From contig JYFJ02003444.1 of NCBI GenBank assembly GCA_000934665.2, positions 1-41,703 on the forward strand: a stretch of 41,703 bases of DNA, given 5' to 3'. Source of the stretch: Catajapyx aquilonaris (lineage: Eukaryota). Shown here piece by piece: positions 1-27,853 of this stretch. How positions within the stretch are numbered: the stretch's first letter is position 1; each line of letters starts with the position of its first letter. A model generated the notes under the pieces. That model saw nothing but the letters and a program-made list of their open reading frames with translations, was not told where the DNA came from and made no database searches. The translations under genes and the position numbers were made by a program.

Positions 1-18
1 CAATAACTCCTACGAAGT

Positions 19-91
19 GGGGGTGTATCTCTGTGGTAGAGCGTTCGCTTTGCATGATTGTGAAAGGTCCCGGGTTCGATCCCCGGCACCA
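19..91 (+). pseudogene. tRNA-Ala(TGC) pseudogene or tRNA-derived SINE head
   Basis: GGGGGTGTATCTCTGTGGTAGAGCGTTCGCTTTGCATG...AGGTCCCGGGTTCGATCCCCGGCACCA resembles metazoan tRNA-Ala(TGC), with an A box, an intact B box (GGTTCGATCC) and a T6 run at 92-97. The D stem is mutated, about 3 nt are inserted after the anticodon loop, and the 3' acceptor strand is incomplete. Confidence 0.75.
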
Positions 92-235
92 TTTTTTAGC
101 CCCTTGGGATTGGAACCACGACACGAGAGGGAAAAGCTCCCGAAGTTAGAGGCATATTTGTTTATTGTCTGGGAGCACCAGGGAGCACCAGGGAGTACCA
201 CTGCAGGTGTACACCGGAGTACCGAAGTGAGTGCC

Positions 236-891
236 CCCTTGGCCAGGACAAACGAATATGCAGGGTGGGGAACAGTGGTCATGTTATTTTTTATCAGGAA
301 GTCCCTGACTACGCGTGAGGTGTGTGCAGGCGGCATTGTCATGGGTGCAGCAACCAGTCTATATGTTCTTCCACATCTCCGGCCATTTGAGCCTAAATCG
401 TCTCAAACCATCCCAGTAGGCCCTAATACTTGCCGTTGACAGTTTTACAGGAGGGAGAAACTCCATATGCATAATTCCTAAAATGTCAAAGAAAATGATT
501 AGCATTGAGTTGATTTTGCTGCAAACTTGACGCGCCGCGCCACCTTCGAAGCTGTTAAGTGTTAACCCACTCATATATGTTATTGCTTGTCTTACAACTT
601 GCTCATCAAAAGCCTTGTTCAGCATTCGGTTGGTTGCATCCGAAGTTTTCTGGAAGCAAAATTTGCAAATCTTTTGCTCCATAACATAAGCGATTTCGAA
701 AAATCGCAGAAGCACAAGAACACGGTGTCAAAAAAACTGCCGAAACTCGGAAACATGAGCACCTATGAAGACGAAATTTTTCTGACTAATAGATGAAAGG
801 TGTAACCTAGCGCCCCCTAACGTCACAAGTTCGTACCTCCACTGGATTTCACGGTATATCGACAGTCCGGGAACTTTTTGATCACACCTCG
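236..891 (-). mobile_element. degenerate, internally deleted mariner (Tc1/mariner) transposon
   Basis: Frameshifted minus-strand peptides match mariner transposase: KICKFCF..KT...ML.KAF (N-terminal HTH), MLIIFFDILGIMHMEFLP, and PAHTSRVVRDFLIKNNMTTVPHPAYSFVLA (cf. HPPYSPDLAP). One terminus, TA|CGAGGTGTGATCAAAAAGTTCCCGGAC, is at 865-893; the other end is missing. Confidence 0.85.
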
Positions 892-1269
892 TACACCTTT
901 AAATTATTTCCGTAGTTTCCATCGATGTGTGGAAGCCGCAAAGAAAGCATACATTCTCTCAAGGGTTCCAAAAAATTTCACACATCACTTGGGTGTCACC
1001 CCCTTTGAGGGCGTCACCCGGTGCGGTCCGCACCTCCCGCACCTGCCTAGCGACGTACGCCACTGATATACAGTACACTGCAGGGTAATATACAGGGAGC
1101 AGATCACATGGTGAGCCCGTAACCACTAACCAGGAATGGGCGAATCTGACTCAACAGGCAAACTGCCATCCATCATTACTCGAAAAGGCCATGTTTCAAG
1201 TGAACTTTGGCTGAGGTACAGGCACCGCAACGCTCCGGTACTGCCCTCTCATCGTGGGATGGTTGGGAC

Positions 1270-1469
1270 GGGTCCACCAGATCCAACAACCGATCTGGAG
1301 AAACCGGAAGGAGGGCAGTTGTACAGTACGATTTATGAAGCTTGTTAGAACGATCACGGGGTAGGCTATAAGTCCTGCTCAAAGGTATAGGTCAGCATTT
1401 CTTCACCTAGAAGTGACACTTGACAAATCACGGTACTTCGTTCCTGTTCCTAATGGCGCATCTTTTCTG

Positions 1470-1552
<83 letters not shown>

Positions 1553-2119
1553 GACACAATAATAAATAACAAAAAATTAAACGACCCCGGGTACTTTTAT
1601 GGGCGTCTCTTTGCATTTCTGCCAACAATACGAATCTCCTGGTGTCGGAAACATTTGCATACGTGATTCGTGCGTGCTGAAGACAAGCGCCAGCATGATA
1701 GGGTTACTTTTTTTGTCTTCAGTGTAATAGTAATATTATGCTGGCGCTATTTGTGACGTCTGGCACGAATCATGTATGCAAAATAATGTTTCCGACACCA
1801 GGAGATTCGTATTTGTTGTCCGAAATGCAATAAAGAGACGGCGATAAAAGTACCCGGGGTTGTTTAATTTTTTTGTTATTTATAATTATTGTGTCCATTT
1901 ATTATTATTCCAGCAAAGGTGCGCCATTATAGGAACAGGAACGAAGTTCCGTGATTTGTCAAGTGTCACTTCTAGGCGAAGAAATCCTGACCTATACCTT
2001 TCATCAGGACTTATAGTACGGTTATACCCCGCGATCGTACTAACAAGCTTCATAAATCGTACAACTGCCCTCCTTCCGATGCCTGTTTCTCCAGATGTGA
2101 TGTTGCATCTGGTGGACCC
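1270..2119. mobile_element. long foldback/MITE-like imperfect palindrome
   Basis: About 1270-1697 is the diverged reverse complement of about 1738-2119 (e.g. cctagaagtgacacttgacaaatcacgg / ccgtgatttgtcaagtgtcacttctagg; acgaatctcctggtgtcggaaacatt / aatgtttccgacaccaggagattcgt). Spacer about 40 bp; no clear TSD. Confidence 0.75.
1471..1551. repeat. (AAT)n microsatellite
   Basis: Pure AAT run of about 27 units inside the left arm of the palindrome. Confidence 0.97.
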
Positions 2120-2350
2120 CCCCCCCCCCCGAAATGTTTGAAATAGCATTAGAAATTACTAATTCCTGATTATTATTATTATTTTTAAAGTGCTACCAAT
2201 TTCATCAAATACACCCATTCAAATTTCCCACATTCACCTAAACTCGTGTGACCTTGAACCCCAAAAAATTCGCCCCAAATCAAAGCATCTCTTGCTAAAG
2301 TTCGAGCCCCTTATCGCACCCCTTGATATCTGAGGCTGGCTCCGCCACTG
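2116..2350. mobile_element. MITE fragment with CAGTGGCG-type terminus
   Basis: Ends in ...ctggctccgccactg (reverse complement CAGTGGCGGAGCCAG). Related termini end at 1065, 3831 and 13690, and one starts at 41639. Confidence 0.5.
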
Positions 2351-3387
2351 AGCTCATCGGATACACGCAGACTTGGAATGGAGTACCCTGCACTCCCGAT
2401 GATCTGTGTGCGGGTTATCCGTTGCATCGACAAAAAAAGTAAAAAAACAAAAGTCGGAAATCTCCCATAAGGTTAGCATGCGTACATTTGGCCCATTGTG
2501 ATGTGCGTACTTTTACCCCATGAGTAAGTTTCCTGGTCTCCAACACATGATGCTGCCAGTACCCGGCTATGTGCTTCAGTCTGCTATGGACTCCCTATAG
2601 GGATTTCTCATAGTTAGAGTCTGTCTTTTTAGGCACGAATAAACCTCAAATAGGCACAACATTTTTACTTTTTCGAGATGATAATGTTACAGGTAATAAA
2701 AAGCTTGAATCATTTTATAGGCATTAAGTCTAAATAAATAAGGTCACAAGTCACAACCCATAGCAAAAACCGAATGACAACGATAAACTGACAGGAAATC
2801 ACGAAACTTGGGCAAACGACACAAAGTGCAAGCAAGTAGCACTTGCTCTGGACTCTACCACTTATGTGAGATAGAAGTGGCCAAAAGTTGCATATGTGCA
2901 TAATCTAAAATTGCATGGATGTTCTGCGCATCCCCACTCACCTTTTTAAAAGTCTGTGATATTCAACTGGACACCACTGTGAAGTAGTGGCACATCTTGC
3001 ATTCAGTGGCCGAAAGATGTTCCGAGGAGGTATCAAAAGCCTGTCCTGGTGACACCTCTATCAACTCATCTACTGCTTTCAACTCCTTACCTCCTGTGAT
3101 CCATTTGGCACTCCCTGAAGGAAGGCGATATCTCCACACCCACTTCATTCCAGAGGATCCGACAGAGGTGGTACTCCCCTATACCTTTTCTGTGTTTCAT
3201 CCTAAACTTAATTTTTGGGCCTCCCAGTCCTGTGGGTCCAAACCCATCCCATCCTTAAAATGTCCCTGGTAACAATTGTACCTGTGTTGATTGCATAAGC
3301 GGATAAACTGTTATGAGTGAAAACATTAAGTCCTGGCATGTTGGAGAAAGGAATTCCCAGGTATAAGGTACATTAACCAAGAAATAA

Positions 3388-3600
3388 GGGAGGCGAAGTG
3401 GCGTTGCGGTAACGTATGCGCCCACGGATGTTAAGGACTCGGGATCAGATCCCGCCCAGGGTTCCCCCCTTCATCTCATGCAGAGTTTGTTAGAGGTTGT
3501 CTCTGGCTTCGTCTTGGGTGGTATCTCCGTTAAGACAAACCACCCTGGGGAGTTCACAAAATGGCCACAACACCGAAATTGCACTGCACTTTGCACATCC
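3388..3600 (+). mobile_element. tRNA-derived SINE, family A (degenerate copy)
   Basis: tRNA-like head GGGAGGCGAAGTGGCGTTGCGGTAACGTATGCGCCCACGGATG..., and the body aligns by eye with the minus-strand copy at 23704-24059 (shared ggggagttcacaaaatg, ttgcactgcactttg). Confidence 0.75.
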
Positions 3601-4319
3601 CCTCTCACCTTTATTACTGTTATGTTATTGTAAAATATTATACTGAAAGTTATGGCTGCCCTTCGGAAATTACCTTTTCCGCCCTTCAAAAATTCGATTT
3701 TCTTTGTGATCTCGCCTCAATTTCCTATTATTGTATTTGAGAAATATTATTCATTGCAACTCGTGGCCGCCCCTGCAGGGAGGCCACCCCTAGGCCAGTG
3801 CCTACTGTGCCTAATGGGAAATCCGCCACTGGGGGACAGGATGGGACAGCCATTTCTGCCGGCTCACACTTTTAGCATTTTTCTTGACCATCCCTCCCCT
3901 TAAGGCGGGTGTCTTAATATAATCGAAGAAAAAAAAAAAACCTCCCCCATCCCTCTGTTCCCCCTGAATATTACTGTACCTGTTGCTACAATACACTACA
4001 TGTATTGTAGTTCCTGCCAAAGATGGGAAAGGAATCCCCCAGAACATGACGACTGACGACCCTCAACACGGAACTTCCCGTTAAACATTAAATGTTTCAA
4101 ATGCTGATCACTAAAAACAGCGATATTAGTCCTGTCTATGGGGAAATTGTCAAAAGTTTGGAAACTTTCTCATTAACTAACTATAACTTTGCCTCATTTT
4201 GAGCCAATTCACTTCATGCCACGCACTGTAACCAATAATAATCACCAGCGTAAAACAGGTACTTCCTGTATAATAATAATAATTGAATAGGTCTCACTCT
4301 CAACAAGTTATATCATTAA

Positions 4320-5119
4320 CCCCTTCGGCCCCAGATCGGCCCGAACCACACAGTTTTTGGCTTACGCGTACTCCGAAGATACGGACAAGATATTTTGCAA
4401 ATAATAACAGATATACTTACGAAATCTGGGAAAACCCTGTGAATGTGTCTGGAACCATTTTACTCGTCTAGAAGTCCCTAAATTAATTTCCAAAAAAGGG
4501 CTATAATAACTCGAAATTGGACCACTGCCGCCCAACTTTTAGGCTGATTTAATTATGAAATGCGTAAAAAGATGCGGAATAACAACCTTGAGAACCATGC
4601 CAGAGGAATTTGCTGAAATCGTCGTCCTTTGCGAGAAATAAATTAATACTTATTTGCGGCTTTCTGGCACTTCGGAAAACTTCGGAAAACTCCCAAATTT
4701 ATTTGTTTCTCATGAAGTACGACTATTTCAGAGAATTCATCTCATACTCATTTAGGAGTTTTCCTAAGTGCTAGAAAGCCGCAATTAAATATTAATTTAT
4801 TTCTCGCAATGTACGACGATTTCAGCAAATTCGTCTGGCAGTTCTCATGGTTGTTATTCCGCATCTTTTCACGCATTTCATAATTAAATCAGCCTAAAAG
4901 TTGGGCGGCAGTAGTCCAATTTTGAGTTATTATAGCCCTTTTTTGGAAATTAATTTAGGGACTTCTAGACGAGTAAAATGGTTCCAGACACATTCATAGG
5001 GTTTTCCCAGATCTCGTAAGTATAGCTGTTATTATTTGCAAAATATCTTGTCCGTATCTTCGGAGTACTACGCGTAAGCCAAAAACTGTGTGGTTCGGGC
5101 CGATCTGGGGCCGAAGGGG
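4320..5119. mobile_element. piggyBac-type MITE, 800 bp, nearly fully palindromic
   Basis: TTAA at 4316-4319 and 5120-5123 flank CCCCTTCGGCCCCAGATCGG...CCGATCTGGGGCCGAAGGGG. Arms of about 380 bp are nearly identical in inverted orientation, with a spacer of about 50 bp and no ORF. Confidence 0.92.
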
Positions 5120-5213
5120 TTAAGCTTCAGTGTGAATGGTTTTCTTGTCAGAATTACAATTTTTTGGCTGACTTTCACAGGTAACCTCAATGGCAGTCAC
5201 TAAGCATAATTAT

Positions 5214-5505
5214 TATTTATTATTATTATTATTGTTACCCCGTGCTCGAGCCATTCGGCTCGTTTTGGAGGGAGGGGGAGGTTCCCAAGGGGGGGCATCC
5301 TCGGTTTATAGTCACTCATGACTCTCTCAGACACACCAGACCTTTTCTCTGGCCCCGGGCAGCTAAGGGAGTGCAATGCTGCCCCGCTGTGTCGGGTGAA
5401 AAGCGGAAGAAGATCCGGCCAAGCAGAGGTGACGGGGACGGGATTTGAACCCCGGCCTCCCGCTTGGCTAGCCAGCGGCGTAACCGCTAGACTACCACAC
5501 CTCCC
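5214..5505 (-). mobile_element. full-length tRNA-derived SINE, family B, with 16-bp TSD
   Basis: Minus-strand head has an A box (TAGTCTAGCGG) and B box (GGTTCAAATCC), and there is an (AAT)n tail. The direct repeat CACTAAGCATAATTAT occurs at 5198-5213 and 5506-5521. Confidence 0.9.
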
Positions 5506-5723
5506 CACTAAGCATAATTATAAGGCTCTAAGGTGAAGCATGACCTAACAACAATCATACCTGGAAATGCTGAGAAATTATGAAATGACATGACAATTTA
5601 AGGTAAGCCAGGTTTATTCAGTAAACAAGTAACACAAAAATTAAAATCGAGCAGCAAAAATTTATTATGACATAGGTGGCAAAAGTAGGGATGGTAAATA
5701 AGCTTCATGATTGGCCTCAATTT

Positions 5724-6911
5724 TCAGTCTTTGCTTTCTGCACTTTTCCCTGCCCCTTCTGCCTTCTTACCGTCTGGGTCCCCTGCTTCTGCATAATCCC
5801 CTTCTCCCTCCTTCTCTCCTGGGTCCTCCTCTTCCTCTCCGGCCTCAACCTGACCTCCATCAGGAATCCACAATCCTGAATCCACGCACTTCTTCATGTA
5901 CAGCCTGGCCTCCGCCTCAGGCATCTCCTGCAAAACCTTCTGCAACATGGGGATGTCCCTCTTGTCGAAGCAGTCCTTCATCGACTGAGGTAGGCTCTCA
6001 TACACATCAACTGGGTCCAATCCCGCGGGTCCTAGACGTTTCTGTCTCTCCAGTTTCTCTTCCTCTTCTGCCTCCCTCAGTGCTTCCTCCATCTTACGAG
6101 CAGCATGCCGCTTTATTCGCTCCCTGAAGGAGTCAAGCTCTTCCTGAAATGCCTTCTGGTATATCTGGTCGGAAACCTGCATGCGAGCAAAGAAGGAGCC
6201 CACACATGCACGTGGGTCAATCTCCAATTGTCTGGCCAACTCAAGTATGTACTGCATACATATACACTGGTGGGCCACATGTCGCATGAGTTCCTCCTTC
6301 TCCTCCATTTGCAGGTTCAGGCACCAGAGAGCAAGGTAGGTGGCAGACTGTTCACAAACCAGCTCCAATCTGTCTTGCAAGTACCGCTTCGAGTCATCTA
6401 GCCTCCGCAGCATCCCAAAGTGCTTCAGCTCCGACTCATGCTTGGCTACAAACTCCTTCTGGCGGCGGTGCTTCTCCTCATCAGACACATTGGCTTCATC
6501 GTCGTAAACTTTCTTGGGCGTGTTGATTACAGTCTTGGTGAACCCTTCCTTTGAAATGGTGTCCACATTCCATGGCGACAGCTTCTTCTTCTGGTCCAAC
6601 TCTGTGCGCTCTTTGATTAGTTGGGCTCCCAGCTCTGACTCGAGGACGGCCAAGCGGCTGCGAAACTCTGCCACTTCCTCCTCCTTTTGTTCAGCTGTGG
6701 CCAAATCCAGCTCCTTCTGCAGCTTCTTTTTCTTGGTGTTATACTCGCTCTCTTTGGCACGGTACTGCTCCTCCTCCTTCTCCAATTCCGTCATCCTCTC
6801 CAGACGAGCCTGGTGACGCCATCGGAACAGCGAAGGCGTGTCCACATTCGGATGAGTCTCATCTTCATCATCTGATATCTCAATATCTTTCCACTTGCTG
6901 TAGTCCACCAT
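5724..6911 (-). CDS. Cdc37: Hsp90 co-chaperone Cdc37, single coding exon, 395 aa
   Basis: Diagnostic N-terminus MVDYSKWKDIEISDDEDETHPNVDTPSLFRWRHQAR (CK2 Ser13 site), PWNVDTIS, and C-terminal RLGPAGLDPVDVYESLP...CVDSGLW. The ATG is at 6911; the ORF track extends to a GTG at 6920. AATAAA on the minus strand at 5661-5666 and 5613-5618. Confidence 0.97.
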   Translation of the reverse strand: MVDYSKWKDIEISDDEDETHPNVDTPSLFRWRHQARLERMTELEKEEEQYRAKESEYNTKKKKLQKELDLATAEQKEEEVAEFRSRLAVLESELGAQLIKERTELDQKKKLSPWNVDTISKEGFTKTVINTPKKVYDDEANVSDEEKHRRQKEFVAKHESELKHFGMLRRLDDSKRYLQDRLELVCEQSATYLALWCLNLQMEEKEELMRHVAHQCICMQYILELARQLEIDPRACVGSFFARMQVSDQIYQKAFQEELDSFRERIKRHAARKMEEALREAEEEEKLERQKRLGPAGLDPVDVYESLPQSMKDCFDKRDIPMLQKVLQEMPEAEARLYMKKCVDSGLWIPDGGQVEAGEEEEDPGEKEGEGDYAEAGDPDGKKAEGAGKSAESKD

Positions 6912-7129
6912 TTCGAGCACGCTCTAGGGCCGACTCCAACAGCAACGGATCCAACCTGTCTCAATCACTAAATTAGATAGATGCCATGCTCGTCTTCTTC
7001 CAATTGTAGACCGAAATATGTGGTAGAACTTACGGATCTTCCAGGGGGTGGTGTGGAACCAAAGGGAGGAGACCCAGGCCGGCAGATTCCTGACCAAAAT
7101 GTAAATACGAACGAATGTTCTCGAAAAGG

Positions 7130-7260
7130 CCAGAGATGACGTAAATTTGACATCCCTCGAACTCCGGTTGTCTCAATTATCGGCAGCCATCTTTGATCTT
7201 CCAGCCCTTCCAAGATGGCTGCCTCCATATGCTTGGTTTAATCCACGGCTTAATCCGCTT
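7130..7260. promoter_or_regulatory. candidate bidirectional promoter (Cdc37 / Tigger-derived gene)
   Basis: Perfect inverted 12-mers GGCAGCCATCTT (7182-7193) and AAGATGGCTGCC (7212-7223) are YY1/Pho-type motifs facing outward. A CRE-like TGACGTAA is at 7137-7144. The site lies between divergent genes. Confidence 0.55.
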
Positions 7261-7707
7261 TGTTTGAAGCTGCAGCCTTGATGACAGCGACAGGTATAAC
7301 TGGGAAGTGTCACCAGCTGGACAATCGGCGTGTCACACGCTGCGAAAACTGCTGAGAAAGTCAGACCACTAGACCAGACACCTGAATTCCTGCCCGAGTC
7401 CATCGTGCTGGAGTTGCAAACTGGAGATTTTGGGCATACTCCAGGTGAAGCTGAGAACCTGCCTCCAGGGAACTGCTGGAATTTGTAGCGATCACTGAAC
7501 CAGGAAGGATCTGGAAGATCTGGAGGGGATTCGAACGTTGCTCATATTTTCTGTGATTCAGCCACATCATTCAGTATATTTTTAATCATCTCAAGATTAC
7601 TTGTAATGGGTGGAATTTTCATCCCGCTTAACTTAACAGTACCACTGCCAACACTGCTAAGTTAGCTGTAACTAGCAGTGCAACGAAAATCCCACCGAAT
7701 CTCTCGA

Positions 7708-7840
7708 TGCAAATGGTTGTATAGGTTGCTTGGTACGTGGCAAAGTAAAGGTTTGCTTTTTGGAGCTCTGTTGAATTTTTACTTTTATTACTTTCAAATC
7801 ACGGTTGATTAAATCCACAGATGTTGAGGGCCACAGACTG
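7708..7840 (+). mobile_element. degenerate pogo/Tigger-type 3' end fragment
   Basis: ggcaaagtaaaggtttgctttttggagc...cacggttgattaaatccacagatgttgagggccacagactg|TA resembles, from memory, the right end of MER2/Tigger-like elements and ends in CTG+TA. Confidence 0.5.
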
Positions 7841-7860
7841 TATTAAGATGTCGTCAGCAT

Positions 7861-8245
7861 TCCAAAGGAAAGATTTGGCTTGTGCACTTTTTTACATGCT
7901 AGGGAAGGCAGAAAATGCTGGATTTCTAGCTCATAATGAACCTTAGTCCTCAAGGTTCATTATGAGCTAGAAATCCAGCATTTTCTGCCTTCCCTAGCAT
8001 GTAAAAAAGTGCACAAGCCAAATCTTTCCTTTGGATCTTATCAAAACTGGCATTTTGGACTTTGTGGATTGCACTTGTATGCTGTGTCCGTAACTCTGAC
8101 ACAGCATACAAGTGCAATCCACAAAGTCCAAAATGCCAGTTTTGATAAGATCCAAAGGAAAGATTTGGCTTGTGCACTTTTTTACATGCTAGGGAAGGCA
8201 GAAAATGCAGGATTTCTAGCTCATAATGAACCTTGAGGACTAAGG
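7861..8245. repeat. inverted triplication (forward-inverted-forward) containing a near-perfect palindrome of about 300 bp
   Basis: An 84-bp unit (tccaaaggaaag...gaacctt) occurs forward at 7861-7944, inverted at about 7952-8035 and forward at about 8151-8234. About 7941-8245 is a palindrome around the spacer cgtaactct (8089-8097). Confidence 0.93.
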
Positions 8246-8351
8246 CCCGAATCTTCGACGTCTCGCGCAAACCTGCGGGAGGCGCTCGCAGAGGGGAGTA
8301 AACAGCTAGGGTCCTCCTGCAGGTTTGCGCGAGACGTCGAAGATTCGGCCC
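8244..8351. mobile_element. PIF/Harbinger (Tourist-like) MITE, 108 bp
   Basis: TAA|GGCCCGAATCTTCGACGTCTCGCGCAAACCTGC...GCAGGTTTGCGCGAGACGTCGAAGATTCGGCCC|TAA: TIRs of about 35 bp and a 3-bp TAA TSD. Confidence 0.85.
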
Positions 8352-8787
8352 TAAATGATGTTCACTAGGCAAGTAGAAAAAATGCTTGATTGTGTGAATA
8401 AACTAAAGACTGCTAAAATAGGAATCAATTAATTTCTCCTGTATGCTGATGATAGTCCTAATGTGCCATCCTGGGCCCTGCAGTTCCCACAGTTGGTTGC
8501 ATGAGATCTGAAGTGGGCATGATCAATGTTGTTGTTCGCCATGATTGTCTGTGGCTTCTAACTGGAATCCTTCCTTGCAGGCTGGTGGCGCTGGAGTATG
8601 GGGCCTTGACTCAGCAGCGTGGTGTTGATTGCGACATTCACATATGTCAAAAGGCGCTGATTGTGAATTGCTACTTGAAGATTGTTTCGAGCTGTAAAGG
8701 ACTGTACGTATTTTTTTGAAAAAGTTTTCGTTTCAAGTCCTTAATGTAAAGATTTGTTTACATCTGTGTTTATAGCTCTTCACGAGA

Positions 8788-10347
8788 ATGAGTGGGCCGA
8801 GCCAGCCACCTAAACGACGAAAGACAGTTTTAACAATTAAACAAAAACTGGACACAATTGATAGACTTGAGAAAGGGGAGTCTGTACACAAATTAGCCAA
8901 GGAGTTGGGTATTGGTGTTTCAACTGTACGTGACTTCAAGAAACAAAAGGAAAAACTCATTAAATTTGCCCGTGACTGTAACGGTGGAGAAGCGGCAATC
9001 ACGAGGAAGTCGCTTAAAAAATCATCTTACGAAAACCTCGATGCTTGCATGATTCAATGGGTCAATCAACAACGATCGGAAGGGATTCCTATCTCAGGCC
9101 CAATGTGCATGGAGAAAGCTCTGTTTTTCCACCATGCTTTAGGCATTGAGGGTACATTTAATGCTTCTTCAGGCTGGTTAACACGTTTTAAGAACCGTTA
9201 CGGTATCAGAGAGGCGTGCATGAAAGGCGAAAAGACAAGTGCAAGTTATTCAGCTGCAGAATCATTCGTAAATGAATTTTGTGACTATGTGGAAAAAGAG
9301 GAATTGTCCCTTGATCAAATTTTCAATGCAGACGAGGCGGGCATCTATTGGAAATGCCTTCCAAATCAGATGCGAGCAATGCAGCAAGAGAAAGAAATTC
9401 CAGGTTTTACATCAGCAAAAGAGAGAGTAACTGTGATGTGCTGTGCAAATGCATCGGGAACATTCAGACTGAAGCCTCTTGTCATAGGAAAGACTAAAAA
9501 TCCCAGAAGTTTTGGTAAGAATTTTGAGAAGAAACTCCCTGTTCACTATGAGGCTCACCCATCCGCTTGGATGGATGGTGACTTGTTTACAAAGTGGTTC
9601 AACGAGATATTTGTACCGCAAGTGAGTGAATGGTTAGAAAAAAGTGGTCTACCAAAAAAAGCAGTTCTTCTACTAGACAGTGCACCATGCCATCCCACTG
9701 ACCTTTGTTCTACTAATGAAGAGATTGTTTTGAAATTCATTCCCCCTAACGTGAAATCCCTGATCCAGCCTATGGATCAAGGAATCATATCATCAATGAA
9801 ACGCATTTACAGAAAAAATCTCCTGAGATTCTTCCTACTTGAAGATGATAAACTTCGGAGTTCTTGGAAGAAAATCAAGCTTGTCAATGCAGTGAATCTA
9901 ATTGCTGAGGCTTGGAAAGAAGTTAAAAACTTAATACTAATTCATGGCTGGAAAAAAATGATCCCTGGTATTGTGAAGATTGAGGCGTCTGCCGATGAAG
10001 AGGTAACAGCATCGGACCTGGTTCAAATCATATCTGGTGTTAGAGGATTTGAAAACATAAGTGAAGCAAACATGGAAGAGTGGCTGGAGTATGACAAGGA
10101 TGATGAAGGCTATAAGATTCTATCAGACCAAGAGATTCTGGATTCAGTGACTCAAGGGGAGCCAGTAGAAGAACAGGAAGAAGGTGGTGATGGTGAATGT
10201 GAAACTGCAATGGTGAGCCATGGTGAAGCACTGGAATGTGTGGAAAAGCTATTATATTATGTGAGTCAACAAACTGATTTCAGCTTTAATGACATTATAG
10301 CTTTGCACAACATTCGCCAAATTGTCCTTGCAAACCAGGAAATATAA
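8788..10347 (+). CDS. pogo/Tigger transposase-derived protein (TIGD/Jerky/CENP-B-like), 519 aa
   Basis: N-terminal psq-type HTH (KRRKTVLTIKQKLDTI...LAKELGIGVSTV), CENP-B-type HTH (GIPISGP...FNASSGWLTRFKNRYGI), and DDE_1 domain with NADEAG, LLLDSAPCH and IQPMDQGII (32 aa between D2 and D3). Acidic tail; uninterrupted ORF. Confidence 0.95.
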   Translation: MSGPSQPPKRRKTVLTIKQKLDTIDRLEKGESVHKLAKELGIGVSTVRDFKKQKEKLIKFARDCNGGEAAITRKSLKKSSYENLDACMIQWVNQQRSEGIPISGPMCMEKALFFHHALGIEGTFNASSGWLTRFKNRYGIREACMKGEKTSASYSAAESFVNEFCDYVEKEELSLDQIFNADEAGIYWKCLPNQMRAMQQEKEIPGFTSAKERVTVMCCANASGTFRLKPLVIGKTKNPRSFGKNFEKKLPVHYEAHPSAWMDGDLFTKWFNEIFVPQVSEWLEKSGLPKKAVLLLDSAPCHPTDLCSTNEEIVLKFIPPNVKSLIQPMDQGIISSMKRIYRKNLLRFFLLEDDKLRSSWKKIKLVNAVNLIAEAWKEVKNLILIHGWKKMIPGIVKIEASADEEVTASDLVQIISGVRGFENISEANMEEWLEYDKDDEGYKILSDQEILDSVTQGEPVEEQEEGGDGECETAMVSHGEALECVEKLLYYVSQQTDFSFNDIIALHNIRQIVLANQEI

Positions 10348-10666
10348 TGGACTTGTCAAACTAAAAATCTATTTGCACGTTTTATTATTTGGATTAAACC
10401 TTATTCAAAGCAGCATACACTATGTACAGTAGTTCATTTAAAACTTCTGAAAGGCTCAATGTTACAGTATCTGGGACCATTTTTGGATGAACTGTGTTTT
10501 CTGGGCACACATGTGCATGAATTAGCATGAATAATCGGGAGTTCAGTGTATGCTACTTTACAGAATGTAATTTTTTTTTCTTCAAAAGGATGACTTCACC
10601 ACTCGTATTTACATCACTCCAAGTACATATTGTTCACTGGAAATAAGTCAATGTAAGAAAAAGTGT

Positions 10667-13252
10667 CTATCTTCCCGTCACCAATCCTCGTCCTCTCTCC
10701 CCACCTCCCAACCTGGACGTACTGTTCCCTTCCACATTATCCTGCCTCATCATCATCCACTGCATCCTAGCTGCCTTGTTCTTTTCTCTCTGTCTCATAA
10801 CTTGTGGATGGTTGTCCTTCCGTCTCCTGTTCTGGAACCAGTAGTCAACATTCTGCCTGCTTGGAGGGATCAGGTCAGTTGTGTGGTCATTCCCAGCAGA
10901 CGTTAGGTTAAGAAGCAAACGGGCATATTCCTTGGTCTGAGCTCCAGTTGGGTAGCGATTTTCTGAGTACCACTGTTCTAGTTGAGCAACCTGACAAACA
11001 TGATAACATGAAATTACTTATTCTCTTCATGATGACTAAACAACTAGACCTCATCTACCTCCCCACTTCTCAGATAAATTTATTAGTTTTCCAATGCTAC
11101 TGTGTTAATTAAAAAGTCGTTGAACCAAATGGTTGGACAGCACTTGCATAATCAGGTGTAGCTTTTGTTTTGCAGTCCCACATAGTCACAAGTAGGTTCC
11201 AATATTCCTTATAAAAAATGACGTATGTAACATACTAATCAAAGAGGAGGTAGATGATGGATCAGTATAACGCATGTCAAAATAATCGAACCTGCACTGG
11301 AGTCCACATGACTCTTTGTCGCTCTTGGTATCTTTGAGGTACACGACAGGGATAAACCACTTGGGATGCTGGCTGTACCACATGCTGCGTTGACTGCAAG
11401 GGGGGTTCTTGAAGAACAGGAAGATTCGTCGCAAGTTGCTGAAAGGTTGGTGATTGTGAGACAGGCGATGCAGATGTGGAATCCTCCTGCTTCACTGTAG
11501 GTGGGATGGAGTCTGAGGTGATCTCAGATGCATCCAAATCTGATGTGTACACAGTCTGAAAAACAGGCAACTTTAAATCAGTGCTATAAATAAAATGTTT
11601 CCTTTTCAAGGTGTATGTAGCATGTGAATATTTTACCTGCTAATTCATAACATTCTAGGAGGCTGTCATGACTTGAGAAACAGGTTTGGTGCTCTGGATT
11701 TGAAAGTTACGGTCAATATTTTGATAAATACAGCATGTTTTTCAAACAAGTTCTACAGATTTTCTATTTTTCTAAAAAAATACATGAACTTTTGCATATA
11801 CCTAATATTTTACAGGAAAAACCCCTATTTTCACGGGCCAAGTTCTCATCACACACCTGTCGAGTCTGTCAATTCAGTTGCATGAAAACATTTCATCACA
11901 GAGGGATATCTTCTGCTGCTTTAGCAAACTTCCTCACCACAAAATCCACTCTACTTACAGAGCTAGTATCACATCCTCTAGCAGCACCAGAAGACATCTC
12001 GACATCTTCTTCTGCCCTACTCTCCACATCTTCCTCCTCCACCTCCCTCTCTGTTTCTCCCTCTCTTGCACCCACTTCCCCACTGAGTCCTCTCACTTGC
12101 AGAATCTCAGCAGCCTTCAGGAAGCCAGGGAGGGAACTCTGGACCACTCGAGTTTGTCCATAGTACATGAACTGAAGAAGCGCATTCATATCCTGTTGTG
12201 AGAAATATTTAAAATACAAATACAGTGCTTGCAATGAAACTTTGAAAGGGTAGAAACAAGGAGGTAGTCACTCCTCAAAAATGTGTACACCGGCTCTCTT
12301 GAATTGGGGCTCTCCTCGGCTCTCACAGGTTCTCCTCGTCTCTCCGCGGCTCTCTGAGGCATCGGTGAGCCAGTAAGATCATGGGTGAGCCGGTGTATAC
12401 TCTCTGTTGAGCATGTTGGTAAGCCAGGAGGGCCGAGGAGAGCCGGGGTGGGCCGAGGAGGCTGCCAAAGGCAAACAACGTCATATGATGAGGAATTATG
12501 AGGAACAAAGGTGTGTTTTCCCCGGCTCTCCCCAGCTCTCCTCAGCTCTCTGTGGCCCACCCCAGCTCTCCGAGGCTCACCAGTGAGGGTGTACACCAGG
12601 TCTTGGAAGTGACTACCCCCTATGGTAGAAACATACAGGAAGTCCCCGGTCGACAAACCAAGTTAGTCAAGTTACATTCCTGAAAATGTCCATAAGTCGG
12701 ATTTGTATGTAACTCGAATCCCTGAGGAACAGCGCATATAATACAGGGTAAAGATGACGCTCCAATGAACCACATATGACATGAGTGTTTGTTTACATGC
12801 ACAGAAGAATGTAGTTATCCAATTATTTATTACTTATACAGTATTTTTGTTGAAGTTGGTGTTGGTCAAAATATGCAGAAGAGATTGAAAGTGGAGATAA
12901 AATTATAATTATCCTTCTGGGGAGACTTGGGAGCCTGTTCATAAGTACAGATCACCATAAGTCATTTGTAAACTGGGGCCTTGGTGTATACGTCAGCAAT
13001 ATTTACCTCATAAGAAATCCCATTGAGGATGACGATGGGGTGCGGAGTCGAATTAGCAGCAAACACATTCTCAAAGTAGGGACTGCAGGCGCTAAGAACT
13101 GCCTGGTGAGCACGAAGGGTCCGTCCCAGTCCTTCGCAAGCAAGAGTCACATCCACAAGCACCTCCCGCTGCAGCAGACTGCACAAGGCTGCGCTCAACT
13201 TGCACTGGGAATCTCGCCACTGAAGACACAACTCACCACCATCGCTGGACAT
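10667..13252 (-). CDS. tramtrack-type BTB/POZ protein with C-terminal atypical homeodomain, 4 coding exons, about 355 aa
   Basis: Exons 13252-13007, 12192-11959, 11555-11292, 10990-10667, all GT-AG and phase 0. BTB: LCLQW...LVDVTLACEG...AHQAVLSACSPYF...HPIVIL|DMNALLQFMYYGQ...FLKAAEILQVRGL. Homeodomain: RQRVMWTPVQ|VAQLEQWYSENRYP...VDYWFQNRRRK. An acceptor sits 2 nt upstream of the ATG. Confidence 0.88.
12283..12597. mobile_element. degenerate MITE-like element with internal CGGCTCTC repeats (intronic)
   Basis: Bounded by gtgtacac at both ends, with many direct and inverted copies of ggctctc/gagagcc; GC-rich relative to the rest of the intron. Confidence 0.45.
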
Positions 13253-13839
13253 GGCTGGAAAAGTACCAAATTCGTCATGCAGTAAGAGTCAGACTCGTAT
13301 GACTAAACAACAATTATTGTTGGCAATCAGTACCATCTGATATAATTTATAATGTGTTAATGTTCCGCAGCACGGTAATGTCATAAAGTAATTGCCCATT
13401 ACCCCACTGTTATTACCTGCTCAGAGACACCTGTAGTCGAACTGTGTGCTTGCAGATCAGTTCTGTGGGTCCAAACTCCAGTCAAGAGTTGTTTGGAATT
13501 TGTTTAGAACTTATTTAGAACAGGTCATGGAACAGGTTTAGAATGTTTACCATCAAGAATTCGCGTGGAGCACTCTCAACTGTTCGTGACGTCATCACTC
13601 CGATTCTGCTACTTATAACGACTATCCCAACTGGGGGCAGCTGGGGGTGTCAAAAATACGCCGTCCTCCCCCCTCCAAGTGTACCCACTGGGCTCAGTCC
13701 GTACTTAAAAAAGAGGCAGCCATACTAATTACCTGGAATGCAGGAATAATTAATTCAACGAGCTGTACTTTCAAGCACGTTCACTCACCGTTCTCAATAT
13801 TAATTAGCTAATTAGCTGCTGCGTGAATCAAACCTGCGC

Positions 13840-14012
13840 ACAAATTTATACTAGACGCAACTCATTTCAAAACGCATGCGCATCCACACCATCCACACTG
13901 CTATTGGACAATGAGGTCACATGCTGCTCTCCGATTGGTTACTAGTTTATGCCTCTAGCTACTATCACGTGATAACTAACCAAAGCGTCAAGAAAGGTAA
14001 ATATGGCGGCGT
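13840..14012. promoter_or_regulatory. bidirectional promoter (BTB-homeodomain gene / PRKRIP1)
   Basis: NRF1/ewg-like CGCATGCGCA (13873-13882), two inverted CCAAT boxes (about 13903, 13934), E-box TCACGTGA (about 13965-13972), and YY1-type ATGGCGGC over the PRKRIP1 start. Minus-strand donor sites at about 13731 and 13415 fit 5' UTR exons. Confidence 0.65.

Positions 14013-25019: not shown

Positions 25020-27853
<2,834 letters not shown>

What the first reader, a model, noticed from the sequence alone, without database searches (positions are those of the whole stretch)
10667..13252. BTB domain fused to an atypical homeodomain with a 15-aa insertion
Seen: four phase-0 exons join a tramtrack-type BTB domain to RQRVMWTPVQVAQLEQWYSENRYPTGAQTKEYARLL-LNLTSAGNDHTTDLIPPSRQNVDY-WFQNRRRK. 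Homeodomain anchors R5, W8, Q12, L16, Y20, Y25-P26 and W48-F49-Q50-N51-R53 are present, but 24 residues instead of 9 lie between positions 38 and 48. Known: arthropod ttk-type BTB proteins usually pair with C2H2, pipsqueak HTH, FLYWCH or BEN/MADF domains, and insertions between helices 2 and 3 characterise HNF-class (HNF1, HMBOX1) homeodomains, which lack BTB. Inference: a lineage-specific chimeric transcription factor or insulator protein that may be uncharacterised. The ORF track hides it because the homeobox is split by an intron.
Basis: partly seen in the sequence, partly recalled or inferred. Interest (0 to 1): 0.8.

Follow-up and report, generated by a model that had tools for sequence, protein, structure and literature searches.

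The report
BTB–homeodomain transcription factor gene
This is a real four-exon gene joining a BTB self-association domain to an unusual loop-extended homeodomain; the same design occurs in water fleas and several non-metamorphosing insect orders, carries only misleading automatic names, and was not found in flies, beetles or other model insects.

Summary
On the minus strand, four phase-0 exons with GT..AG introns (13252-13007, 12192-11959, 11555-11292, 10990-10667) give a 355-aa ORF. Pfam finds one BTB domain running without a break across exons 1 and 2, and a homeodomain above the curated cut-off in exon 4. There are 36 residues between P26 and W48 where a canonical homeodomain has 21, so the insertion is 15 residues.

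An RNA-like contig joins exons 3 and 4 exactly at 11292/10990. The exon 2-3 link has no direct RNA evidence. It rests on homology: the spliced protein aligns as one HSP across all four exons with BTB+homeodomain proteins of cockroaches, crickets, stick insects, thrips and whitefly.

The gene is not narrowly lineage-specific. It belongs to an old orthogroup that includes Daphnia. No holometabolan member was found. Database names are arbitrary (abrupt, fruitless, bric-a-brac, Kaiso-like). I found no paper describing the design.

The loop insertion occurs in every member examined and varies from 8 to 23 residues. The homeodomain is closest in sequence to dve/Compass and closest among solved structures to HMBOX1/HNF1, but meets neither class definition. 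A conserved fourth helix follows it. Most likely function: an oligomerising, sequence-specific transcription factor (inferred).

The parts
13417..13452 (-). 3' end of a non-coding 5'UTR exon (upstream limit unknown)
   Evidence: Contig record 6 of run X1 joins 13417 to 13254, skipping 162 nt with CT..AC ends
13007..13254 (-). Exon 1; ATG at 13252; encodes the N-terminal strand motif and the first half of the BTB domain (BTB match from about 13177)
   Evidence: Translation; Pfam BTB profile 4-62, E 3.6e-12; GT donor at 13006; acceptor defined by the contig joint
11959..12192 (-). Exon 2; second half of the BTB domain (12082-12192), then an acidic stretch
   Evidence: Translation; Pfam BTB profile 63-99, E 6.2e-5; AG/GT sites; tblastn of orthologues and fru-like BTBs
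11292..11555 (-). Exon 3; low-complexity linker, a conserved short linker motif (11406-11444), and the homeodomain N-terminal arm with the start of helix 1 (11292-11321)
   Evidence: Translation; linker motif aligns with the insect motif; exon 3 to exon 4 join seen in contig record 4; no Pfam family
10802..10990 (-). Exon 4, homeodomain positions 13-60: helix 1, extended helix 2, inserted loop (about 10841-10912), recognition helix with W48 F49 Q50 N51 R53
   Evidence: Translation; Pfam Homeodomain 29.6 bits against cut-off 22.9; AlphaFold2 helices at residues 2-10, 16-31 and 45-57 of the exon-4 translation; spacer count
10733..10807 (-). Conserved fourth helix after a D-x-H-P kink, directly behind the homeodomain (family signature)
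   Evidence: Invariant D59, H61, P62, R68, K70 in alignment A3; helix 62-86 with block pLDDT 82-87; the same helix at 294-318 in the cockroach orthologue model
10667..10732 (-). Poorly conserved C-terminal tail and TAG stop (10669-10667)
   Evidence: Translation; pLDDT below 50 for residues 88-106
10375..10666 (-). 3'UTR, at least this far
   Evidence: Contig record 1 of run X1 is collinear with 10375-10755

Best explanation
The locus is an intact, expressed gene for a 355-aa transcription factor. Its parts, in order, are an N-terminal tramtrack-group (ZBTB-type) BTB domain, a disordered linker with one short conserved motif, and a single atypical homeodomain. That homeodomain has a 15-residue insertion between helices 2 and 3 and is followed by a conserved basic fourth helix.

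The gene belongs to an old, unnamed orthogroup shared by branchiopod crustaceans and several hemimetabolous insect orders.

Proposed mechanism (inferred, not shown): the BTB domain makes homodimers and perhaps higher oligomers or mixed complexes with other tramtrack-group BTB proteins. This presents two or more homeodomains to DNA. Each homeodomain keeps the DNA-contacting residues R5, Q50, N51 and R53 and so probably reads a short site. The long loop and fourth helix would add or change contacts, as the extended loops do in HNF1 and HMBOX1. The result would be cooperative binding to clustered sites and, as with most tramtrack-group factors, probably repression or chromatin-level regulation.
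For: Gene and domains:
- Searches give the gene model and domains.
- Exon 3-4 and 5'UTR-exon 1 splicing is seen in contigs of run X1.
- One HSP covers residues 7-326 of the spliced protein against the Diploptera protein P0032 (42% over 325 aa, E 5e-75), with similar end-to-end matches to 12 further full-length family members.

Conserved design:
- All 19 significant hits carry PF00651 + PF00046.
- 22 of the 120 listed hits carry both.
- 4 of 4 full-length orthologues rescanned pass both Pfam cut-offs, Daphnia carinata included.
- Unnamed transcript-sized contigs of 1.1-1.6 kb encode the whole BTB+homeodomain protein (P0030, P0035, P0045-47, P0055).

Family signatures:
- Homeodomain invariants Q-N-V, W-F-Q-N-R-R-R and D-x-H-P.
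- The linker motif is shared with insects.

Fold: a three-helix homeodomain plus a fourth helix in the model of the window's exon 4 (pLDDT 74.8). The full-length cockroach orthologue model shows BTB at pLDDT about 90, a disordered linker, and a homeodomain at 86-97.

BTB type: 55-58% identical to proteins named lola, fruitless or tramtrack. It has the H-P-I-V-I-L strand that 98 of 112 retrieved tramtrack-like BTBs have.

Oligomerisation of tramtrack-group BTBs into dimers and hexamers: Bonchuk et al. 2024, PMC11426971, passages read.
Against: - No RNA contig covers exon 2 or the exon 1-2 and 2-3 junctions in this species, so the BTB-to-homeodomain link here rests on homology.
- Run X1 has no recorded library type. 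Its RNA nature is inferred from the spliced contigs.
- The window's N-terminal strand motif reads L-C-L-Q-W-R instead of the tramtrack consensus F-x-L-R-W-N. Insect orthologues have F-C-L-R-W-S. According to the paper this strand matters for specific dimer formation, so partner choice or oligomer state may differ.
- The window protein sits on a very long branch (2.36 changes per column).
- DNA binding, oligomeric state and regulatory sign are all untested.
- Y47 and R54 are unusual in the recognition helix, so the target site cannot be predicted.
Confidence: 0.8

Rival explanations
1. Gene-model artefact: the BTB exons (1-2) and the homeobox exons (3-4) belong to two neighbouring transcripts, and the 355-aa protein does not exist in this species.
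For: No contig of run X1 covers exon 2 or bridges 11959/11555. Exon 2's frame stays open for 21 more codons past the donor and then stops, so a BTB-only read-through product is conceivable.
Against: The same order of parts occurs in one polypeptide in 22 listed database proteins, plus 4 Daphnia-type ones whose homeodomain I identified by inspection and motif. These include whole proteins on 1.1-1.6 kb transcript-like contigs. One BLASTP HSP spans all four exons. Exon 3 carries both the family's linker motif and the homeodomain arm. It has no ATG-initiated independent start supported by any evidence, and its acceptor and exon 2's donor are both canonical and phase 0.
Confidence: 0.04
2. The homeodomain no longer binds DNA and serves as a protein-interaction module. 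The protein would then be a BTB adaptor, for example a Cul3 substrate adaptor or a cofactor that titrates other tramtrack-group BTB proteins.
For: The homeodomain is highly atypical: a long variable loop, W8, Y47. Pfam scores are modest, 24-36 bits across the family. A BTB-only protein that works purely through partners exists (Batman, PMC11426971).
Against: The DNA-contacting positions R5, Q50, N51, R53 and the whole W-F-Q-N-R-R-R string are invariant from Daphnia to insects. That pattern is what selection for DNA contact would leave. The basic helix that follows is also conserved. The BTB is of the transcription-factor (ZBTB/tramtrack) subtype, not the Cul3-adaptor BTB-BACK type: there is no BACK or Kelch Pfam hit.
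Confidence: 0.1
3. It is a divergent member of an existing homeobox class: either HNF (HMBOX1-like) or CUT/Compass (dve-like) that swapped its N-terminal domain for a BTB. It would then work like that class. An HMBOX1-like member might, for example, bind repeats directly, as HMBOX1/HOT1 binds telomeric repeats.
For: HNF side:
- HMBOX1 chains 4j19 and 2cuf are the best PDB sequence matches. The single-sequence match is 18.8 bits and gapless across the loop. The family-profile match is 27 bits, E 3e-5.
- They are Foldseek ranks 1-3 (E 0.014).
- HNF1A, HMBOX1 and HNF1 take ranks 1-4 in VIA-align (Z 8.0-8.8).
- HMBOX1 has 15 extra residues at the same place (Holland et al. 2007, PMC2211742, section read).

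Compass side:
- 9 of the 20 hits of the exhaustive search are dve-type proteins. 5 are so named by their source; the other 4 I judged by likeness of sequence.
- They score 17-31 bits per homeodomain, with the loop at the same place and shared N-V-x-Y-W-F.
Against: - The class-defining partner domains are absent. There is no POU-like, Compass/SATB1_N or CUT Pfam hit in any exon or in 4 full-length orthologues.
- Position 50 is Q, where the aligned HMBOX1 has A and dve has K.
- Structural margins over ordinary homeodomains are about 1 Z unit, which the tool calls a tie.
- PDB profile scores for goosecoid, bicoid and Nkx2.5 (25 bits) nearly equal HMBOX1 (27 bits).
- The two candidate classes compete with each other.
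- Loop length varies from 8 to 23 extra residues within the family, so the match to HMBOX1's 15 may be coincidence.
Confidence: 0.2

Closest known systems
Tramtrack-group BTB transcription factors of arthropods (fruitless, lola, tramtrack, bric-a-brac, abrupt)
   Same: An N-terminal BTB with an extra first strand and the H-P-I-V-I-L strand. BTB identity is 50-58% to proteins so named. The overall layout is also shared: BTB, then a disordered linker, then a C-terminal DNA-binding domain.
   Different: The DNA-binding domain is a homeodomain rather than C2H2 fingers, a Pipsqueak HTH or FLYWCH. The survey of tramtrack-type designs (PMC11426971) has no homeodomain in its main text or in its supplementary file 7. 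The window's first-strand motif departs from F-x-L-R-W-N. No alternative 3' exons were seen in the window.
HNF-class homeodomains (HMBOX1/HOT1, HNF1A/B)
   Same: Extra residues between helices 2 and 3: 15 in HMBOX1 and 15 here, 21 in HNF1. W at position 8 is seen in the HMBOX1 alignment. They are the best solved-structure matches by sequence and by fold.
   Different: No POU-like domain. Q50 instead of A50. The scores are weak. The BTB partner is unknown in this class.
Compass (Cmp) family homeodomains: dve / dve-1
   Same: The highest-scoring homeodomains outside the family. They share a loop insertion at the same place, the E-N-R-x-P turn and N-V-x-Y-W-F at the start of helix 3.
   Different: dve proteins have a SATB1_N/Compass domain and two homeodomains, with K50 and A52 in the first. 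This family has a BTB, one homeodomain, Q50 and R52, and a D-x-H-P kink plus fourth helix that the aligned dve sequences lack.
Vertebrate ZBTB (BTB-zinc-finger) factors such as ZBTB17, BCL6, BACH1
   Same: They are the best solved BTB matches for exon 1, at 23-38 bits. They follow the same logic of a dimerising BTB tethering a DNA-binding domain.
   Different: A different DNA-binding domain, and much lower BTB similarity than to the arthropod tramtrack group.

Membership tests
BTB/POZ domain (PF00651) | Match to the Pfam profile above the curated cut-off | tested here: met
   Exon 1 scores 46.9 bits and exon 2 23.6 bits (cut-off 20.5), on consecutive profile positions 4-62 and 63-99
Tramtrack-group (TTK-type) BTB | N-terminal F-x-L-R-W-N strand motif (Bonchuk et al. 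2024, passage read) | tested here: not met
   The window has L-C-L-Q-W-R. Insect orthologues have F-C-L-R-W-S and Daphnia F-T-L-R-W-H. All 33 outside BTBs compared have [FY]-C-L-[RK]-W-[NS]-N-H. The motif is degenerate in the window and partly kept in orthologues
Tramtrack-group (TTK-type) BTB | Conserved B3 strand that forms the dimer-dimer (hexamer) interface | tested here: met
   H-P-I-V-I-L is present in the window and the insect orthologues, as in 98 of 112 retrieved proteins with a tramtrack-like N-terminal motif. It is diverged in Daphnia-type members. The motif-to-interface link comes from passages of PMC11426971
Tramtrack-group (TTK-type) BTB | Closest BTB relatives are tramtrack-group proteins | tested here: met
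   55-58% identity over 113-122 residues to proteins named lola, fruitless-like or broad-like. In the BTB tree the window row sits in an unresolved polytomy with these and the insect BTB-HD clade
Tramtrack-group (TTK-type) BTB | Forms hexamers (three dimers) in solution | not testable with these tools
   Needs SEC-MALS, SAXS or cryo-EM. The window's BTB is split by an intron, so I did not submit it to a complex prediction
Homeodomain (PF00046) | Match above the Pfam cut-off, with conserved W48, F49, N51 and R53 | tested here: met
   29.6 bits against 22.9 for exon 4 alone. Orthologues score 23.8-36.4 bits. The residues are read and are invariant in A3
Homeodomain (PF00046) | Three-helix fold with helix 3 as the recognition helix | tested here: met
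   AlphaFold2 models. All top structural neighbours are homeodomains
HNF homeobox class | [quoted passage not shown] 2007, section read) | tested here: not met
   No Pfam hit other than BTB and Homeodomain in the exons or in 4 full-length orthologues. The region before the homeodomain is predicted disordered
HNF homeobox class | Many extra residues between helices 2 and 3 | tested here: met
   15 extra here and 8-23 across the family. HMBOX1 has 15 and HNF1 21
HNF homeobox class | Homeodomain groups with HNF1/HMBOX1 in phylogeny | tested here: inconclusive
   HNF-class chains are the top PDB hits by sequence and fold, but by small margins. No reference homeodomain set was available for a tree
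Compass (Cmp/dve) family of the CUT class | CMP (SATB1_N/Compass) domain N-terminal to the homeodomains | tested here: not met
   The N-terminus is a BTB. No such Pfam hit
Compass (Cmp/dve) family of the CUT class | Homeodomain sequence affinity | tested here: inconclusive
   dve-type proteins are the best outside hits, at 17-31 bits per domain. They differ at positions 50 and 52 and lack the D-x-H-P plus fourth-helix signature

The most novel reading that the evidence does not exclude
This family may be an unrecognised homeobox class of its own. On this reading it arose in the pancrustacean ancestor when a tramtrack-type BTB was joined to a loop-extended (HNF/Compass-like) homeodomain, was kept for several hundred million years in branchiopods and hemimetabolous insects, and was lost in Holometabola. 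That loss would explain why Drosophila genetics never met it. As the only known factor that hangs homeodomains on an oligomerising BTB, it would bind clustered or repeated sites as a multivalent, architectural-type regulator. One possible target type is simple repeats, in the manner of HMBOX1/HOT1.
Probability: 0.3. Interest if true: 0.7.

Novelty: new variant of a known kind. Interest (0 to 1): 0.55.

Why it matters
BTB transcription factors and homeodomain factors are two of the best-studied regulator families in arthropods. A conserved gene that combines them does not appear in the main survey of tramtrack-type designs, nor in any paper I could search. It hides in databases under names copied from unrelated BTB genes.

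It was not found in Holometabola. If that absence holds, it is a regulator that model-insect genetics could not have discovered. It can be tested in Gryllus, Blattella, Frankliniella or Daphnia, all of which allow RNAi or CRISPR.

It also offers a natural experiment on how oligomerisation changes homeodomain site selection. The loop insertion and the extra helix bear on how the HNF and Compass atypical homeodomains arose.

Tried and rejected
- RNA support: the look-up of sequencing runs listed one holder (X1, library type unknown) and no holder on record as RNA. In read laying, exon 2, intron 1 and the 1-2 and 2-3 junctions had no cover. This is neither evidence for nor against.
- Own genome: none is held, so paralogues and the organism could not be examined.
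- The search for homologous proteins with exon 4 and 'longer' lengths returned nothing. The other searches found the relatives, so this was a failure of the word index.
- Earlier notes of this scan: nothing on this genome, this sequence or this domain pair.
- Literature: six searches gave no paper on a BTB-homeodomain protein. The crustacean homeobox survey PMC5968366 has no mention of BTB, HNF, Cmp or unclassified genes in its main text.
- Bonchuk et al. 2024 (PMC11426971): all 9 'homeodomain' strings in supplementary file 7 are PHD fingers. 'HOX', 'cd00086', 'smart00389' and 'COG5576' occur 0 times. Supplementary files 8 and 9 of that paper were not searched.
- Alternative 3' exons (lola or mod(mdg4) style): tblastn of ten BTB, zinc-finger and dve proteins found only this gene's own exons in the window.
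- Solved tramtrack-type BTB structures did not appear among the PDB sequence hits for exon 1; only vertebrate ZBTB, BACH and similar chains did.
- SATB1's homeodomain ranked only 36th by fold (Z 5.1). No invertebrate dve structure is among the matches returned, so fold comparison cannot judge the Compass link.
- Terminal inverted repeats around the neighbouring transposase ORF: none convincing.
- The BTB-only tree could not settle a single origin. The label needs 2 changes, though starred branches allow 1.
- A complex prediction of BTB copies was not run. The window's BTB is split by an intron, and a pass with an orthologue would mostly reflect likeness to solved BTB dimers.
Full report
**What is in the sequence**

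On the minus strand of 10667-13252 there are four exons, each open in one frame: 13252-13007, 12192-11959, 11555-11292 and 10990-10667. They translate to 82, 78, 88 and 107 residues. Their lengths are multiples of three, so all introns are phase 0. All three introns begin GT and end AG. The joined coding sequence is 1068 nt, giving 355 codons and a TAG stop.

**Domains**

I scanned the four exon translations against Pfam.
- Exon 1 matches BTB (E 3.6e-12) on profile positions 4-62.
- Exon 2 matches BTB (E 6.2e-5) on positions 63-99. This is a single domain that continues exactly where exon 1 stops.
- Exon 4 alone matches Homeodomain at 29.6 bits, above the curated 22.9. The match falls in two stretches because an insertion breaks it.
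- Exon 3 has no family.

The intron lies between homeodomain positions 12 and 13.

**Expression and splicing**

One public run (coded X1, library type not recorded) holds 26% of the sampled words. I laid it on 10350-14000, and 7 contigs matched.
- One 480-nt contig runs from 10771 through exon 4 and continues in exon 3 to 11551. It skips exactly the 301-nt intron, with CT..AC ends on the plus strand.
- Another contig joins 13254 to 13417, which reveals a 5'UTR exon and shows that exon 1 starts at 13254.
- A third is collinear with 10375-10755, so the 3'UTR is at least 292 nt long.

The homeobox junction is therefore confirmed. Exon 2 and the 1-2 and 2-3 junctions have no cover.

**Are BTB and homeodomain really one protein?**

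An exhaustive HMMER search of 1.84 billion representatives with exon 4 gave 20 hits at E <= 0.001. The best include two full-length proteins, 372 aa in Frankliniella fusca and 392 aa in Anabrus simplex. Both have an N-terminal BTB and the same C-terminal homeodomain.

A search seeded on the Anabrus homeodomain returned 19 significant proteins out of 26 candidates, and all 19 carry PF00651 + PF00046. A profile search with alignment A2 scored 8000 candidates and found 275 at E <= 0.001. Of the 120 listed:
- 22 carry both domains. They come from Orthoptera, Blattodea, Phasmatodea, Thysanoptera, Bemisia tabaci and unnamed transcript-like contigs.
- 5 are homeodomain-only fragments.
- 4 are Daphnia-type proteins (D. 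carinata, D. galeata and two unnamed) listed as BTB-only. On inspection they contain the same homeodomain.

On rescanning, 4 of 4 full-length orthologues pass both Pfam cut-offs.

The spliced window protein, built in a script from coordinates, aligns as one HSP over residues 7-326 with the Diploptera protein (42% over 325 aa, E 5e-75). It aligns similarly with 12 other full-length family members. Exon 3 shares a short linker motif with the insect proteins as well as the homeodomain arm. Every exon therefore has family-specific homology. Whole BTB+homeodomain proteins encoded on 1.1-1.6 kb contigs in other species show that single transcripts carry both domains.

**The family**

- The helix 2-3 insertion is present in every member examined, but its length varies: 8 extra residues in most polyneopterans, 13 in thrips and Gryllus, 15 in the window and one unnamed record, 16 in Daphnia, and up to 23.
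- Invariant across alignment A3 are Q-N-V, W-F-Q-N-R-R-R, then D-x-H-P and a basic stretch.
- AlphaFold2 on the window's exon 4 with this alignment (pLDDT 74.8) gives helix 1, a long helix 2, a lower-confidence loop, the recognition helix, a kink, and a fourth helix of 25 residues at pLDDT 82-87.
- The full-length cockroach orthologue model shows a confident BTB, a disordered linker of about 100 residues, and the homeodomain plus the same fourth helix.
- In a family tree, the Daphnia-type proteins form one clade (100/100). The window plus 15 insect rows form the other (100/100). The window lies outside the insects (81/93) on a long branch of 2.36, so its placement is uncertain.

Named members come only from Branchiopoda and hemimetabolous insects. 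The holometabolan, odonate, myriapod and chelicerate proteins listed match the BTB alone, at 27-49% query coverage. The exhaustive search produced no holometabolan representative. This is absence in these searches, not proof of loss.

**Which BTB?**

The BTB is 55-58% identical to proteins named lola, fruitless-like, broad-like or tramtrack. It carries the H-P-I-V-I-L strand that 98 of 112 retrieved tramtrack-like BTBs share.

The N-terminal strand motif is F-C-L-R-W-S in insect members and F-T-L-R-W-H in Daphnia, but L-C-L-Q-W-R in the window. The window therefore fails the strict F-x-L-R-W-N test.

Passages I read in Bonchuk et al. 2024 (PMC11426971) report three things:
- The motif forms the first strand and matters for specific dimer formation.
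- The hexamer interface is made by the B3 strands.
- Tramtrack-type BTBs are specific to arthropods and pair with C2H2, HTH/Pipsqueak or FLYWCH domains.

That paper's main text has no 'homeodomain' or 'homeobox'. Its supplementary file 7 has only PHD fingers under that word. Supplementary files 8 and 9 were not searched.

**Which homeodomain?**

Two leads compete.

By sequence in the large library, 9 of the 20 hits are dve/Compass-type proteins. 5 are named dve or homeobox by their sources. The other 4 I judged by likeness of sequence. Per domain they score 17-31 bits against the window's homeodomain. The loop lies in the same place, and they share E-N-R-x-P and N-V-x-Y-W-F.

Among solved structures, HMBOX1 (4j19, 2cuf) is best by several measures:
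- single sequence: 18.8 bits, aligned without a gap across the whole loop;
- family profile: 27 bits, E 3e-5, with W8 shared;
- Foldseek: ranks 1-3, E 0.014.

In an all-against-representatives structural search, ranks 1-4 are HNF1A, HMBOX1 and rat HNF1 (Z 8.0-8.8). Ordinary homeodomains follow at about 7, and SATB1 scores 5.1.

These margins are small. Goosecoid, bicoid and Nkx2.5 score 25 bits against the profile. Holland et al. 2007 (PMC2211742, HNF and CUT sections read) define the HNF class by a POU-like domain plus an atypical homeodomain with 21 (HNF1) or 15 (HMBOX1) extra residues. They define the Cmp family by a CMP domain. Neither partner domain is present here. Position 50 is Q, not A or K. 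I therefore file the homeodomain under neither class. It works like a loop-extended homeodomain, and its class is open.

**Mechanism**

Shown:
- an intact gene, at least partly transcribed and spliced;
- a BTB fold and a homeodomain fold;
- invariant DNA-contact residues;
- a conserved fourth helix and a conserved linker motif.

Inferred:
- The BTB dimerises or multimerises and may mix with other tramtrack-group BTBs.
- This presents several homeodomains to clustered sites.
- The loop and fourth helix add contacts.
- The output is probably repression or chromatin-level control, as for most of the group.

The target sequence cannot be predicted, because Y47 and R54 are unusual.

**Novelty**

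The domain pair is annotated by Pfam in public records, but under arbitrary names: abrupt, fruitless, bric-a-brac 2, broad-complex, Kaiso-like, ZBTB18-like. Six literature searches and three papers read in part gave no description of it. About 1.7 million PubMed Central articles and most subscription-journal papers are outside the searched library.

I rate it a new variant of known kinds: real, conserved, uncharacterised, but not lineage-specific.

Noticed in passing
window 8788-10347 (+): An intact 519-codon ORF for a pogo/Tigger-type transposase: CENP-B_N, HTH_Tnp_Tc5 and DDE_1 (E 2.8e-51). It ends about 320 bp from the BTB-homeodomain gene's stop codon, on the opposite strand, so the two genes converge. 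Contigs of run X1 that match only 10379-10432 and then diverge suggest other copies of a repeat that ends there, inside or next to the gene's 3'UTR. No clear terminal inverted repeats were found.
   Followed up: partly
window 5724-6911 (-): A Cdc37 co-chaperone gene read as a single uninterrupted 395-codon ORF. All three Cdc37 Pfam domains match. No intron is needed.
   Followed up: partly
window 26426-27350 (-), perhaps to 25020: Two adjacent ORFs carry consecutive parts of one protein kinase domain (Pfam Pkinase profile 92-172 and 170-251). They are exons of a serine/threonine kinase gene. Downstream ORFs at 25020-26405 are low-complexity and may be its tail.
   Followed up: no
window 12308-12581 (intron 1 of the gene): GC-rich 10- and 20-nt tandem repeats inside the first coding intron. 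They create a long spurious ORF on the minus strand (12186-12662).
   Followed up: no
Orthologues: P0033 and P0103 (Gryllus longicercus), P0007, P0034, P0041: In Gryllus longicercus the BTB-homeodomain gene has locus tag R5R35_013519, and the next tag, R5R35_013520, is Fruitless. In Anabrus, Periplaneta and Bacillus rossius, the family member and a fruitless/lola-like multi-isoform BTB gene are listed with a longest contig of the same length, probably the same scaffold. This hints at origin by tandem duplication of a fruitless-like BTB gene. No fruitless-like gene lies in this window.
   Followed up: partly
window 11406-11444 (-), exon 3: A short hydrophobic linker motif ending L-P-V-L-Q-E aligns with L-V-L-P-V-L-Q-E in insect members. 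It resembles L-A-A-F-L-S-V-L in Daphnia-type members. It is the only conserved element in an otherwise disordered linker (pLDDT below 50). It may be a docking site for a partner.
   Followed up: no
P0011 (1555 aa): One hit of the exhaustive search matched only residues 69-106 of exon 4 (the basic helix and tail) in 8 stretches. This is probably a low-complexity or repeat match. I never inspected it.
   Followed up: no
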